Source: Octopus sinensis
Taxonomy: Eukaryota
Reading direction: 5' to 3'
Length of the DNA stretch: 64,000 nt
Assembly (NCBI RefSeq): GCF_006345805.1
Contig: NC_042999.1
Coordinates: 150,536,001-150,600,000, forward strand
Below the pieces are notes generated by a model. That model was not told the DNA's origin and searched no databases. It worked only from the letters and a program-made list of their open reading frames with translations. Each line of letters starts with the position of its first letter. The stretch's first letter is position 1. Below, in pieces: positions 922 through 62,059 of the stretch. Position numbers and translations under genes: made by a program.

Positions 922-1219
922 AATATGTAAAACCGCACAGGAAGTTTGTGTAATAAAATGTATGCTAATATTAAGATCATAATGAAAGAGTTGTATTATA
1001 ACATTAGATAATAAACTGGTAGTACTGGTTTCACGTCTTATGCTAATCAAACCTCTAAGGTCTTAGAATGACTGAAATCTAAGTCCTTGGATGTTTGATA
1101 AGCATAAGATGCGAAACCGGTACTACCAGTTTATTATATAATGCAACTCTTTGTTTCATTATGATTTTAATATTAGCATAAATTTTATTATACAAACCTC
1201 CTGTACATTTTTATATATT
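922..1219. mobile_element. Fold-back (~140 bp arms) Penelope-like pLTR remnant with U3-A8 hammerhead-like core at 1095-1122
   Basis: Arms are imperfect reverse complements around ~1070; TTGATAA-GCAT-AAG-ATGC-GAAA-CCGGTA. Confidence 0.6.
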
Positions 1220-1229
1220 TTTCTTTCAG

Positions 1230-2075
1230 AGGAGCTTCAGACCTTGGACATAGAAGTAGCTGGAAATTCCTACGGGACAGCTTACTGAGTGCCACAGACC
1301 AAGTCTGTGAATGGTGCAAAGTCCTTTCCAGACCTAGAGTAACATGGTGGTGGAATAATACGATAGACAAAGCCGTTAGATCAAAGAAACAGGCCTGAAA
1401 AGCCTGGAAGAGTGGCAGTACCAGGGAACTGTACCAGATAGCCAGAAGGGAGGCTGGGTGACAGGTATACATAGCCTAGGGAGAAGCAGAAAAGAAGAAG
1501 TTTGCAAATGTCCAGCGAAGTGAGGACAAAAGAACTGAAGTATTTCGGATTGCAAGACAGTGTGTGAGAGAAAATTGTGATGTCACAGGAGAGAAATGTG
1601 TCCGCATGGATGATGGTGCACTTGCTTTTAATGATTTGGAAAAGAAAGAGGCTTGGAGAAGCCATTGTGAAAGACTGCTGAACATGGAGAATGAATGGGA
1701 GGAGGAGAGCCTGCCAAATGTTGACCCAGTAGAGGGACCAGCTATCCAAATAGAAAGCACTCTGGTAGATAAAGCAATTAGGGTTATGAAGCCAGGAAAA
1801 GCCCCTGGCCCATCAGGAATCACTGCTGAGATGCTTAAAACATCTGGTGGTGTGGGCTATGGCTTAGTCAACCATAGTCAACCAGGTAGTTCATGATGGA
1901 GTCATACTCAATGACTGGCATAGTAGCACCATAGTCAACTGCTACAAGGGTAATGGTGATGCTTTAGATAGAAATAACTATAGGGGTATCAAACTGCTAG
2001 ATCAGGTGATGAAAGTCATGGAGAGGGTCATAGCCCAACTAATTAGGGAGAGAATCTGCTTAGGTGAGATTCAGT
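1230..2075 (+). mobile_element. RTE-clade LINE fragment (pre-RT and start of RT), disrupted
   Basis: TWWWN, KAIRVMKPGKAPGPSGITAEMLK, GDALDRNNYRGIKLLDQVMKV. Confidence 0.9.
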
Positions 2076-2089
2076 TGTGGTCCTCATGG

Positions 2090-3249
2090 ATCATTTCAAC
2101 TTTTCTTATTAATAACTGCATTCTCTCTTTCTAAGTAAACTGATTTCTGACTGTTCAAAGAAGACATCAGAACTAACAACTTGCAACTACTCTTAGAAAT
2201 GTACAAAATTTTCATTATGGTATTATGAAGTATCTGCAGATAAAAGGGTTTAGCTTCCAACAACATTCATGCTGACATGATTGCTAGATTAAGGGATGAT
2301 GCTCCAGTTTTATCAACAGTGCAAAAGTTGGCAGCTGAATTTAGGAGAGTCTTTAAGATGACCCAAAGTCTAGATGTCCTGCAACTGCACCCACTGAAGA
2401 AAGCATCGATTGTGCTCACCACATGCTGATGGATGATGGGTGATTTATTATAAGTGAAATAGCCAATACTATCAGCATATCCCATGAGAGAGTTGAGAAT
2501 ATTCTACACAATGAACTTGGCATGACAAAAGTTTCCGCTCAGCCAGTGCCACATCTGATGCTAGATCGAAAGGCTGACCACATCATAAGAAAATCTGAGG
2601 CAGATTCAGCTGATTTCTTTGAACATTTCCTAACCCAGGATGTGTGTTGGATTGATCACTTCAAGTCAGAGACAAAAAGATAATCCATGCAGTGGAAACA
2701 CCCCTCCTCACCTGCTCTAAAGAAGGTCAAGATCATTTCATCTGCAGGGAAGGTGATGGCCTCAGTTTTTTGGATTTGAAAAGGAATTATGTTTATTCAA
2801 AAGGGCCACATCATTAATAGAGTACTATACCAAGTTGGTGAGGCAATTACGAAAGAGTGTCAAGATCAAATGCCCAGGGAAACTGGTGAAATCTCCATCA
2901 AACAAGCCCTTTTTTTCAGTGACTGTTGTGCATGTCTGGCTTTGAAGTAGTTAATCCCCACCCCCTATTCTCCAGATTTGGCCCATCTGACTATCGTCTG
3001 TTCCCCGACATGAAAAAACACTTGAATGTGAACCAGTATTGCAGTGATGTTGATGTCATATTTGCTGTTGATGACTTTTTTTGGACCAAAAGGATGAAAG
3101 CTTCTTCACCAATGGGATCCAATCACTGCAACACCGATGGAAGAAGTGTGTGGACTGCAAGGAGGACTATGTTGAGAAATAGATATCATTTGGTCATGTT
3201 CCATGAGAGTACATTGGTTGGCTTATGAACTTTTCATCCGACCCTCATA
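2090..3249 (+). mobile_element. Degenerate mariner (DD34D) transposon
   Basis: Frameshifted remnants: ILHNELGMTKVSA, ETK..SMQWKHPSSP, GKVMASVFW, YSPDL/PSDYRLFPDMKKHL. Confidence 0.85.
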
Positions 3250-4059
3250 TGTTGTATGTGTGTGTGTGTGTATAAATAACTTGAAATCATAGAATATAGA
3301 ATATACTACGTGTGTCAGTTATTAGCTAACCCTAACTGCAGCCTTCAGAAATTTCATGCTTTCTAAAATTTTCCAACACTACTCCTGACTATTTAACCTT
3401 TTCTCCTTATGGTTCTTTTACTGTTCCCTTTTCTTCTTTTCATTACTTATTGATGCTTTCTGTCTCTTCTTTTAACCTTTTCCAATGAATTGTAGTGTGC
3501 CTGAGCATTGTCTATACTAAGCTCATCATACATGAATAGCAAAATCACAACATTTGTTTCTGCACTGGACAACAGCTTTAAGTTGATGACTTTACACTTA
3601 CATATTATATAAGATTATTCTTTAGAATTACAAAATAATTAAATATTTTTCAACAACATCTGTGTGTGGAATGAATGCTTGATCACATTTAGTATAATCC
3701 TGGTAACAACCAAGTATTAGTGAGGCTGCATTGTGCTCTACAAGGCTTAAGACTCTTCAATACCCTCTATGCTATCTTTATTCACATTGTTCTCTGCTAA
3801 TATTTTCTAAATGAGAGACAGGAAATGAATTAAAGGAGAGCTAAGAGCATAAAGCTAAAGTTTTGTTCTTGATTACAATTCCTCATCCGTCATCTTTAAT
3901 CTATATTGGAGTCAATAAAATAAGGACTAGTAACATACTGGGATCAGTTCAATCAACTGTACTCTCTCCCTTGGCAAATGTTAACTAGTGCATTGTCAAA
4001 ATTAATGTTGTCCATTGTGGGTAGCCAGCAGAGTAAATCCTTGGAATTAAGAGGATAAT

Positions 4060-59719: not shown

Positions 59720-59990
59720 GTATTTTGTAGCTAAAACGGCCGACAAATATGGAGACCTGGAAATTGGGATAAACAAAACGTGGCAGCTGTGAGAGGCAAA
59801 CATAAAAGTCGTCCCTGTTGTCACCGGAGCATTGGGTTCAATACCACCCAACTTGAAGAAACAGCTGGACACTTTAGAAATATCATACGATCTTGATGTA
59901 TTGCAAAAATCAGCTTTACTTGGAATTGCATGCATACTGCGCAAAGTGCTGTTTGTCTGGGGTCCTTGTTGTGACTTGACAGACAGCACA
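59720..59990 (+). mobile_element. R4/Dong-like retrotransposon C-terminal fragment (second family)
   Basis: KYGDL...VVPVVTGALGSIP...LQKSALLGIACILRKVL. Confidence 0.75.
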
Positions 59991-61391
59991 AATCCCCCGG
60001 CACATACAATGTCTTCGAGTGGCCGTGTGGTAAGTGGCTTGCTTACCAACCACATGGTTCCGGGTTCATTCCCATTGCATGGATTTGGACGAAACTTTCA
60101 GGGATATTTGGCCTCGTGACTGGCACGAACTGATTAAATTTTGGGAGCGGTCCGGTGCCGGACAAGGATTCTGGATTATTTTGCCGTTTTTTTTTACTTA
60201 ATCTTTGAGAGCAGTCGGGTTCATTTTTAGTATTCTCGTTTGTGAGAGCAGTCGAATTTATTTCAGACATTCCAATCATGCCCTACTCATGTTATTTTTT
60301 CAGCATAGAAGCAGCAGAGTTGGTACTCTACTGCTTCTATGCGCTCTCACCTTAATTAATAGGCATGATAGTGCCTATTAATTAAGGTTTGTGCCCCTCT
60401 CATTCTGAGTCCGAGGTGATTGTTCTTTTCTCGCTCCTTTGCAATGCATCTGGCCACGGTATTGATAAAACTACATATACTTACATCGATCCATCGATCC
60501 ATCGATCCATCGATCCATCTATACATACATACATACATACATACATACATACATACTCTTTTACGTCATTTGACTGCGGCCATGCTGGAGCACCGCCTTT
60601 AGTCGACCTCAGAACTTATTCTTTGTAAGCCTAGCACTTATTCTATCGGTTACTTTTGCCGAACCGCTAAGTTACGGGGACGTAAACACACCAGCATCGG
60701 TTATCAAGCGATGCTGGGGGTGGGGGACAAACACTGACACACAAACATATACACACATATACATACATAATACGACGGGTTTCTTTCAGTTTCCGTCTAC
60801 CAAATCCACTTACAAGGCTTTGGTGGGCCCGAGGCTATAGCAGAAGACACTTGCCCAAGGTGCCACGCGGTGGGACTGAACCCAGAACCATGTGGTTGGT
60901 AAGCAAGCTACTTACCACACAGCCACTAAGCTTCATACCCATTATTATTAGAACAAGACACATACCAACCCGTCTGGAGCAAAGTATGGCTGAACTTGGA
61001 TCCTTAGGGGAAGAATGCAGATCCTTAATTCATTAGCTACAAATGATCCCGTTATCTTGAACTATAGAATTCTGCAAGACCTTAAGATTTACAGGATGAT
61101 GAAGAAAACAAGGTGCTTTCATTTACAGCTTTGCTACCAAGTAGGTGTACGGTCAAAATTTATTCTAACTTAAATAGAGAAAGAGAATACATAAACCATT
61201 AGCATAACTGTTTTTCAATAAATTGGCTATCCAGATTCTTCATTTCCCAAGCATCACCGAGGGACTCGCTAGTTAATAAATGTGTGCGTATGTGATATAA
61301 CATCAATTTATGTGATTACTGAAAAATAATAGAAAAAAAATTTATTTCATATAAAATATTAGTAATAATTTCTTAGCGGGTTAGCAGGATT

Positions 61392-61464
61392 GGCCGCGTG
61401 GCCTAATGGACAAGGCGTCTGACTTCGAATCAGAAGATTGCGAGTTCGAGTCTCGTCGTGGTCG
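61392..61464 (+). tRNA. tRNA-Arg (anticodon TCG)
   Basis: GGCCGCGTGGCCTAATGGACAAGGCGTCTGACTTCGAATCAGAAGATTGCGAGTTCGAGTCTCGTCGTGGTCG; 73 nt cloverleaf, A/B boxes, T-run terminator just downstream. Confidence 0.96.
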
Positions 61465-61583
61465 AATAATTTTTATTTTTTTAACTTTTTTTTTTCATTA
61501 GGTGTCATTGCTGATAACATATGTGAAAACTATATATATATATATATATATATATATATATATATATTTAAAACACTTTGATT

Positions 61584-61730
61584 GGGTTCCATGCTACTGC
61601 AAGTTACGCAAGCCTCTAACGGGAGCCAAGCCTGAAGGAGTCGGGCTCCCCATAGGAGCCTGCGAAGCTCGAAGTAGCACGGAATTGAATCGAACAGTTT
61701 TGAATAATATACATAACTCCTACTAAATAT
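61584..61730. mobile_element. Palindromic Penelope-like remnant with hammerhead-like variant
   Basis: Same motif as 34948-35104. Its flank GAATAATATACATAACTCCTACTAAAT is the approximate reverse complement of 34948-34978. Confidence 0.55.
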
Positions 61731-62059
61731 TTGCCCTTTTCGTTTCTTTGTCTACTTACTCGTGTGTGTGTGTGTGTGTGTGTGTGTGTGTGTGTGTGTT
61801 AACCGCTAACTCCAAAAATCTTTATTTTTCTATTCCCTCTCTGTTTATTTCCCCGTGTTCCTTTCTGTTCAAGGGCGTAGGGTCCAAACGTAAAATATTT
61901 TCTCACCTTCCCGAGCGTTAAACTAATACACCACTATATTGTTTATACACCTATCTTCGTCTTTTGTCTTTCTGTATGTGTGTGTATGTATACACACACA
62001 CACACGCACACGCGCACACACACACACACACACACACACACATGCACGCATACATCTAT

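What the first reader, a model, noticed from the sequence alone, without database searches (positions are those of the whole stretch)
922..61897. About five unrelated families of hammerhead-bearing, mostly palindromic mini-elements in one 64 kb window
Hammerhead-like cores with different stems occur at 1095-1122 (mirror copy ~1017-1050), 33345-33386, 35058-35103 and 61632-61680 (one family), 47462-47506 and 48739-48808, plus a very decayed candidate at 61862-61897. Most sit in or beside head-to-head inverted repeats, and no Penelope ORF is visible in the window. Inference: the genome is strewn with short non-coding fold-back, ribozyme-carrying elements. They are either inverted pLTR remnants or a retrozyme-like non-autonomous class. 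I cannot tell whether this is already described for cephalopods.
Basis: partly seen in the sequence, partly recalled or inferred. Interest (0 to 1): 0.75.

Follow-up and report, generated by a model that had tools for sequence, protein, structure and literature searches.

The report
Penelope retroelement stumps, one tRNA-headed
The small hammerhead-shaped RNA motifs in this stretch of octopus DNA sit in the cut-short, often folded-back ends of six ordinary Penelope-type jumping-gene families, a known arrangement; the one unusual point is that one lineage carries a tRNA-like segment that likely lets its last 300 bases spread on their own like a SINE.

Summary
The motifs are real at family level. 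All seven sites belong to six high-copy repeat families whose majority sequences form minimal type I hammerheads; one tight core pattern occurs 8,392 times in the genome against 60 for its control. Only 2 of 7 window copies pass a strict descriptor. Elsewhere in the genome each family runs upstream into a Penelope-like RT/GIY-YIG frame (Neptune-like F1, F4, F6; Hydra-like F3, F5; Poseidon-like F2; F3 rests on one locus). Copies have fixed 3' ends with an optional tail, variable 5' ends, and an inverted arm upstream in 55 of 176 loci (downstream 8, direct second copy 8). So these are 5'-truncated, inverted Penelope insertions, not retrozyme arrays; both the layout and an octopus PLE hammerhead are published. 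The exception: F2 and its abundant sister family carry a tRNA-like segment behind the ORF stop, and most copies begin there (21 of 23; 25 of 30), so they are likely Pol III-driven, PLE-copied SINE-like elements. I did not find this pairing in print, but this scan has noted it before on other octopus DNA. No transcription or cleavage was shown.

The parts
864..1067 (-). F1 inverted arm of a Neptune-like PLE end, with decayed hammerhead and the family tail (864-913)
1068..1227 (+). F1 forward arm, no tail; hammerhead 1088-1128 with the U3-A8 core variant (core 1095-1101, GAAA 1113-1116)
   Evidence: family runs into RT thumb + linker + GIY-YIG in L058, L052, L045
31940..32140 (-).
33266..33429 (+). 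F2 copy (Poseidon-like PLE end): B-box half of the tRNA-like head, internal deletion, hammerhead 33345-33386 with CpG decay; no inverted arm; in an ATAD3 intron, antisense
34909..35051 (-). F3 inverted arm with broken core and family tail (34909-34970)
35057..35125 (+). F3 forward arm, decayed hammerhead 35058-35103, no tail; in an ATAD3 intron
47266..47408 (-). F4 inverted arm, truncated downstream of the ribozyme so that it has none, plus a short re-inverted end piece 47266-47296
47413..47645 (+). F4 forward arm (Neptune-like PLE end): hammerhead 47462-47506 identical to the family majority, tail 47618-47645
   Evidence: family runs into RT/GIY-YIG in L004, L008, L010, L030
48427..48521 (-). 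F5 inverted piece made of the last 26 bases plus the family tail
48538..48843 (+). F5 forward arm (Hydra-clade PLE end): hammerhead 48739-48808, no tail
61544..61627 (-). F3 inverted arm (second insertion), lacks the 5' core strand, ends in (TA)n
61628..61762 (+). F3 forward arm: hammerhead 61630-61679 with one core change, tail 61705-61761
61799..61976 (+). F6 copy (Neptune-like PLE end): decayed hammerhead 61862-61897; the family has U in place of A6; no inverted arm

Best explanation
The seven motifs are predicted minimal hammerheads in the 3' terminal repeats of six Penelope-like element (PLE) families, left here as short, mostly decayed insertions that likely arose when the PLE enzyme copied only the end of its RNA and often added a mirror-image second copy. 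Shown: each family joins an RT and/or GIY-YIG frame in longer copies; 3' ends are fixed with an optional 30-60 nt tail; 5' ends vary; inverted arms lie 5'. Inferred from PLE biochemistry (PMC11167929): the endonuclease nicks AT-rich DNA, reverse transcription starts at one of two internal sites (giving the tail at one end), stops early and may invert. The hammerheads are predicted to cut only as dimers or with protein help, and the window copies are likely inactive. In one lineage (F2 and its sister) a tRNA-like segment lies between the ORF stop and the hammerhead and most copies start at it; it likely acts as an internal Pol III promoter whose 300-nt transcript is copied in trans by the PLE protein (this step about 0.55).
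For: ORF links: F5 in L151-L155 and L119, a 2.75-kb body with CxCx5C linker; F1 in L058, L052, L045, L044, up to 78% identical to an RT + GIY-YIG protein P0003; F4 in L004, L008, L010, L030; F6 in L235, L236; F2 in L162, L168, L294-L300; F3 in L290, with a 207-nt intervening stretch shared by L288. 5' ends from -9 to beyond -1,500. Inverted arm upstream in 55 of 176 loci, downstream in 8. Tail on the forward arm in 58 of 148 loci of F1-F5, and on exactly one end in 5 of 5 window fold-backs. (TA)n at the 3' end in 91 of 146 loci of F1, F3-F6 and 1 of 30 of F2. Same layout in PMC8557442 and PMC4209133. tRNA head.
Against: No PLE coding remnant in the window. The F3 link rests on one locus with an endonuclease remnant 1.3 kb away across CA-rich DNA and a SINE; a second candidate (L219) proved to be another family. 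No intact autonomous copy was found; clades are called from motifs, with no tree. F6 shows no upstream inverted arm in 28 loci. Copy sets are top BLAST hits to the window copy, which inflates conservation and hides very short copies. F4 also clusters its 5' ends (14 of 28 at -41 to -58) without a tRNA head. Rfam and ARAGORN do not call the head a tRNA, and F2's own head is not significantly like tRNA-Arg (82 of 1,000 shuffles).
Confidence: 0.9

Rival explanations
1. The elements are non-LTR retrozymes: non-coding tandem units that self-cleave, circularise and are copied by a PLE enzyme.
For: Retrozymes carry type I hammerheads and derive from pLTRs, with many solo monomers (bioRxiv 10.64898/2026.07.22.740005). 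Nine F2 copies share one 117-nt internal deletion, so a deleted master was amplified.
Against: Direct second copy within 1.5 kb in only 8 of 176 loci; 5' ends vary and run into coding sequence; stem I is 2-5 bp in four families. Tandem arrays elsewhere in the genome were not searched for.
Confidence: 0.07
2. The fixed 5' start of the F2 lineage marks a Pol II start site in the pLTR, an RNase P-type cut at the tRNA-like fold, or a hairpin where reverse transcriptase falls off, not a Pol III promoter.
For: Penelope has an internal TATA-less promoter in its pLTR (PMC2377424 abstract). A short palindrome straddles the head's first base and several copies end in a 6-nt extension or small fold-back there. 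F4 shows a 5' cluster with no tRNA head.
Against: The starts fall within -6 to +9 of the first base of a segment that aligns end to end with a tRNA, with A- and B-box-like motifs in tRNA spacing; the 312-nt F2 majority sequence has no run of four T (read; expected by chance about half the time, so weak).
Confidence: 0.35
3. The elements are a class of palindromic, MITE-like or hairpin elements with fixed fold-back boundaries that move by themselves.
For: 5 of 7 window sites are fold-backs; target-site-like repeats flank 11 of 53 F2 units against 7.2% in mismatched controls.
Against: Fold-back centres and arm lengths differ from locus to locus; about two thirds of loci show no inverted arm; the two ends differ by the tail.
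Confidence: 0.02
4. Chance motifs in repeat-rich DNA.
For: 5 of 7 window sites fail the strict descriptor; no Rfam hit.
Against: Family majorities restore the cores; 8,392 against 60 genome-wide; six different stem sequences surround the same core.
Confidence: 0.01

Closest known systems
Minimal type I hammerheads (min-HHR) in pLTRs of metazoan PLEs (Cervera and De la Pena 2014, PMC4209133; read parts 1-2 of 4, no supplements)
   Same: Short or palindromic stem III, extra base after A9, many sequence families per genome, mostly solo copies of truncated PLEs, opposite-strand pairs 100-700 bp apart, U3-A8 core variant (F1).
   Different: No mollusc or octopus in its main text. The fixed A6U core of F6 and the extra G in F3 are not in the parts I read.
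EN+ PLE insertion unit, and Hydra-1_Obim of Octopus bimaculoides (Craig et al. 2021, PMC8557442; passages and supplement hits)
   Same: 5' truncation, adjacent inverted truncated copy, tail at one end, (TA)n targets, CxCx5C linker (F3, F5). The listed octopus hammerhead has the same 8-nt first core strand and 1-nt loop III as F5, and the RT reads alike by eye.
   Different: F5 is a different family (other stems, 2.75 kb against 2.5 kb); tails of F3 and F5 are 55-65 nt rather than 30-40; no tRNA-like segment is mentioned in the passages seen.
PAc, Poseidon element of Anolis (Frangieh et al. 2024, PMC11167929; main text read)
   Same: Poseidon-type frame, hammerhead near the 3' end, optional tail between two RT start sites; gives the mechanism used here.
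   Different: No tRNA-like head reported; its ribozyme needed protein and was dispensable for insertion in vitro.
Schistosome Sm-alpha / Sj-alpha SINE-like elements (seen only second-hand in PMC6765202 passages)
   Same: Pol III promoter plus hammerhead in a short non-coding retroelement.
   Different: Tandem arrays with an active ribozyme that frees monomers and no partner named in those passages; here dispersed, with PLE tail and fold-back, and the same head lies inside the coding PLE.
Animal non-LTR retrozymes (PMC7229834 passages; bioRxiv 10.64898/2026.07.22.740005 parts 1-3 of 5, supplements closed)
   Same: Non-coding, type I hammerhead, derived from PLE pLTRs.
   Different: Defined by head-to-tail units each with a ribozyme and by circular RNA; neither is seen here; neither text names a cephalopod in what I read.

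Membership tests
EN+ Penelope-like elements | RT followed by GIY-YIG endonuclease upstream of the terminal repeat | tested here: met
   F1, F2, F4, F5, F6 in two or more loci each; F3 in one; all frames broken
EN+ Penelope-like elements | Variable 5' truncation, fixed 3' end | tested here: met
   clusters of 5' ends in F2 and F4
EN+ Penelope-like elements | Inverted truncated copy at the 5' side | tested here: met
   55 upstream against 8 downstream of 176 loci; 0 of 28 for F6
EN+ Penelope-like elements | Optional tail at one end | tested here: met
   58 of 148 forward arms in F1-F5; 5 of 5 window fold-backs; no tail class seen in F6
EN+ Penelope-like elements | Full-length pLTR-ORF-pLTR tandem | tested here: inconclusive
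   Longest copies (L153, L154, L227) are 5'-truncated or broken
Hydra clade | CxCx5C linker, CxxC and CxH in the endonuclease, no CCHH, under 3 kb, (TA)n target | tested here: met
   F5: against the definition; F3 partly
Neptune / Poseidon clades | CX2-5CxxC linker present (Neptune, Nematis) or absent (Poseidon); placement in an RT tree | tested here: inconclusive
   Linker present in F1, F4, F6 and not seen in F2; no tree built, Nematis not excluded
Minimal type I hammerhead | Core strands, stems I and II, palindromic stem III | tested here: met
   Family majorities; variants: U3-A8 in 28-29 of 29 F1 copies, U6 in 26 of 27 F6 copies, U-U at the base of stem II in F4
Minimal type I hammerhead | Self-cleavage as dimer or with protein | not testable with these tools
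   Needs in vitro assay
Non-LTR retrozymes | Head-to-tail units, each with a ribozyme | tested here: not met
   Direct second copy in 8 of 176 loci; whole genome not searched for arrays
Non-LTR retrozymes | Circular monomer RNA | not testable with these tools
   No raw RNA reads available
tRNA-derived SINE (F2 lineage) | tRNA-related head with A and B boxes at the 5' end | tested here: met
   Sister-family head against window tRNA-Arg 0 of 1,000 shuffles; F2 head against sister head 0 of 1,000; but F2 head against tRNA directly 82 of 1,000, and no Rfam or ARAGORN call
tRNA-derived SINE (F2 lineage) | Defined 5' start, short, non-coding, high copy | tested here: met
   21 of 23 F2 loci and 25 of 30 sister loci start at the head; 2,881 exact head matches against 0 control
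tRNA-derived SINE (F2 lineage) | 3' end shared with a LINE partner, poly(A) or simple-repeat end | tested here: not met
   The 3' end is the hammerhead and tail of a Poseidon-like PLE
tRNA-derived SINE (F2 lineage) | Transcription by RNA polymerase III | not testable with these tools
   Inferred from boxes and start positions only

The most novel reading that the evidence does not exclude
A Poseidon-type Penelope lineage in octopus has captured a tRNA-derived Pol III promoter behind its stop codon, so that the coding element itself spawns a 300-nt SINE that ends in a PLE hammerhead and tail and is copied by the PLE enzyme: a SINE whose partner is a Penelope element and not a LINE, now outnumbering its parent about five to one among head-bearing copies.
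Probability: 0.55. Interest if true: 0.65.

Novelty: new variant of a known kind. Interest (0 to 1): 0.4.

Why it matters
Five of the six families are new members of a well-described kind, and the dense scatter of fold-back hammerheads needs no new element class; the class given here rests on the F2 lineage alone. If its tRNA-like head is a working Pol III promoter, it extends SINE parasitism from LINEs to Penelope elements, shows one route to a SINE (promoter capture inside the autonomous element), and offers a short natural template for testing what a PLE enzyme needs in trans. The fixed core variants (U3-A8, A6U) also bear on the open question whether PLE hammerheads need to cut at all.

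Tried and rejected
Rfam for hammerheads: none. Intron reading of the F2 deletion: 9 copies share a 117-nt deletion but not at GT-AG ends, and the predicted spliced junction gives 2 matches against 2 controls; rejected. L219 and L220 as ORF links for F3: the endonuclease remnants there belong to other insertions. ORF L104:1811-2887 is a tandem repeat read-through. Rfam and ARAGORN on heads: nothing in 20 and 52 loci, nothing in two short stretches (the second missed the head's first 17 bases); ARAGORN calls the majority head only at a threshold where 18 of 500 shuffles also pass. Selection on the core among copies found by upstream sequence: 22 of 196 against 444 of 2,708 mismatches (F2) and 31 of 192 against 639 of 3,032 (F3), only slightly lower, no test made. 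Target-site repeats in F2: 11 of 53 against 7.2%, several not at the boundary; weak. Dimer folding energies have no control and were not used. Strand bias against the host gene: only 2 of 7 sites lie inside ATAD3, so no test. Lunse et al. on PLE hammerhead variants is not held, so whether A6U is described there stays open. Literature searches with no description of a PLE-copied tRNA SINE or of cephalopod retrozymes in the listings or passages seen; Repbase, Dfam and subscription papers were not searchable.
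Full report
Setting. The window is octopus DNA: an exon at 31324-31485 is 100% identical to an Octopus bimaculoides ATAD3 protein, and that gene spans about 42100 to 10600 on the minus strand. The genome holds 2.72 Gb.

Observation. My type I descriptor with an exact core finds 47467 alone (stem I of 4 bp or more; 4 of 410 shuffles reach 1) or 47467 and 33348 (3 bp or more; 0 of 410 reach 2); with one core mismatch there is no excess. 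Rfam has no hammerhead match. Each site is, however, a copy of a repeat, and the majority of 27-29 other copies restores a minimal hammerhead in each family. I call them F1 (1095), F2 (33348), F3 (35058 and 61632), F4 (47467), F5 (48748) and F6 (61862). F1 has U3 and A8 in 29 and 28 of 29 copies, a variant described in Schistosoma PLEs (PMC4209133); F6 has U in place of A6 in 26 of 27. These sets are best hits to the window copies, so conservation is overstated. Genome-wide, one tight core pattern occurs 8,392 times against 60 for the reversed pattern. The families show no DNA match to each other near the ribozyme.

What the elements are. Longer copies run upstream into PLE coding sequence. 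F5: five fetched loci (L151-L155) and L119 hold an RT and an endonuclease with CxCx5C, CxxC and CxH motifs in a 2.75-kb body, the marks of the Hydra clade (PMC8557442). F1: L058, L052, L045 and L044 match P0003, an RT + GIY-YIG protein, at up to 78%. F4 (L004, L008, L010, L030) and F6 (L235, L236) have a CX2-5CxxC linker and GIY-YIG frame like F1. F2 (L162, L168, later L294-L300) has an RT and endonuclease with no such linker. F3 reaches a Hydra-type endonuclease in one locus, L290, across CA-rich DNA, and L288 shares 207 nt of the intervening sequence; this is the weakest link. Frame remnants are related in pairs at protein level (F1-F4, F1-F2, F1-F6, F3-F5). No PLE protein matches the window itself.

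Architecture. After dropping 4 duplicate loci, 176 remain. An inverted arm lies upstream in 55 (F1 12 of 30, F2 15 of 30, F3 13 of 29, F4 7 of 29, F5 8 of 30, F6 0 of 28), downstream in 8, and a direct second copy within 1.5 kb in 8; these are lower bounds, since arms under 28 nt or made of tail alone are missed. Arm lengths and fold-back points differ between loci, and 5' ends run from -9 to beyond -1,500 relative to the core. The 3' ends fall in two classes, with and without a tail: 58 of 148 forward arms in F1-F5 carry it, and each of the 5 fold-backs in the window has it on one end only. (TA)n follows the end in 91 of 146 loci of F1 and F3-F6 but 1 of 30 in F2. This is the insertion unit drawn by Craig et al., whose File S2 lists a hammerhead for Hydra-1_oBim; opposite-strand pairs and thousands of solo motifs per genome are in PMC4209133.

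How it likely works. Shown: the anatomy above. Inferred from the Anolis element PAc (PMC11167929): the endonuclease cuts AT-rich DNA, reverse transcription starts at either of two internal sites that bound the tail, and the ribozyme cuts only with protein and is not needed for insertion in vitro. Early stops and an inverted second copy leave stumps like these. The palindromic stem III predicts cutting as a dimer. In the window F4 and F5 keep family cores but have no second ribozyme on the same strand; the others have core or stem damage. They are likely inactive.

The exception. F2 has a sharp 5' start 218 nt before the core: of 26 independent loci found with its upstream part (self and 3 duplicate loci dropped), 23 reach the first 16 nt, 21 stop there and 2 continue into the ORF (counted). 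Aligning ORF-linked copies shows that F2 and a sister family, which supplies 24 of the first 30 pattern hits, both carry a segment behind the stop codon. The sister's segment aligns with the window's own tRNA-Arg gene better than all 1,000 shuffles, and F2's aligns with the sister's likewise, though not with the tRNA directly (82 of 1,000); Rfam and ARAGORN do not call it. A pattern inside the sister head has 2,881 matches against 0. Of the first 30 by position, 25 begin between -6 and +9 of the tRNA-like start and 5 continue 50-300 nt upstream (the script flagged 6, and I read L332 as a start); 22 are followed by the hammerhead module; uniform truncation would give this with p about 2e-22. 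The window holds a second piece of this lineage at 31940-32140 with a small fold-back at the head. The likeliest reading is an internal Pol III promoter that makes a 300-nt RNA copied by the PLE protein; a Pol II start, an RNase P cut or an RT stop at a hairpin are not excluded, and F4 shows a weaker 5' cluster with no head (14 of 28).

Comparison and novelty. For F1 and F3-F6 the finding is known PLE biology in a group where PLEs are reported as abundant (PMC13282606, PMC8967140 passages). Retrozymes require tandem units, which are rare here. The nearest published relative of the F2 case is the schistosome Pol III hammerhead SINE, seen second-hand; a curation guide remarks that retrozymes may count as PLE-dependent SINEs (PMC8969392 passage). 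Eight searches showed no description of a tRNA head inside a PLE, but Repbase, Dfam, closed supplements and subscription papers were out of reach. Earlier notes of this scan report both the PLE-stump reading and the tRNA-headed family on other octopus DNA; I reached both before seeing them, except for the pointer to Hydra-1_Obim and two papers.

Verdict. Observation partly confirmed; PLE stumps 0.9; PLE-copied Pol III SINE in the F2 lineage 0.55; interest 0.4.

Noticed in passing
window 10610-42100, minus strand: ATAD3 gene in about 15 exons; the F2 and first F3 insertions lie in one intron, with forward arms antisense to it.
   Followed up: partly
window 61392-61464 and 63377-63449: Two tRNA-Arg(TCG) genes 2 kb apart.
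   Followed up: no
window 36643-37539 +: 299-codon open frame with a weak PHD-finger match (E 1.5e-4), inside an ATAD3 intron on the other strand; possibly a LINE ORF1 remnant.
   Followed up: no
window 61628-61976: The F6 copy begins about 40 bases after the tail of the F3 insertion, separated by (GT)n: two PLE families side by side.
   Followed up: no
L129, L132, L135, L136, L137, L144, L148, L133, L128: Nine F2 copies share one 117-nt internal deletion between head and hammerhead, a shorter subfamily.
   Followed up: partly
F4 loci L006-L029: 14 of 28 copies begin 41-58 bases before the core, several as near-perfect palindromes centred there; possible start site or inversion hotspot.
   Followed up: partly
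L259, L262, L264, L267, L271, L272 and L219: Further hammerhead families not in the window, with short stem II or Hydra-type layout.
   Followed up: no
window 5683-43757 (repeat family D6) and 47646-47842: An abundant tRNA-SINE-like repeat whose B-box region resembles the F2 head, and a 200-bp palindrome directly after the F4 tail that matched no other F4 locus.
   Followed up: no
window 56549-57987 and 54772-55330: A 290-nt inverted repeat pair 859 nt apart, and a 15-nt tandem array.
   Followed up: no
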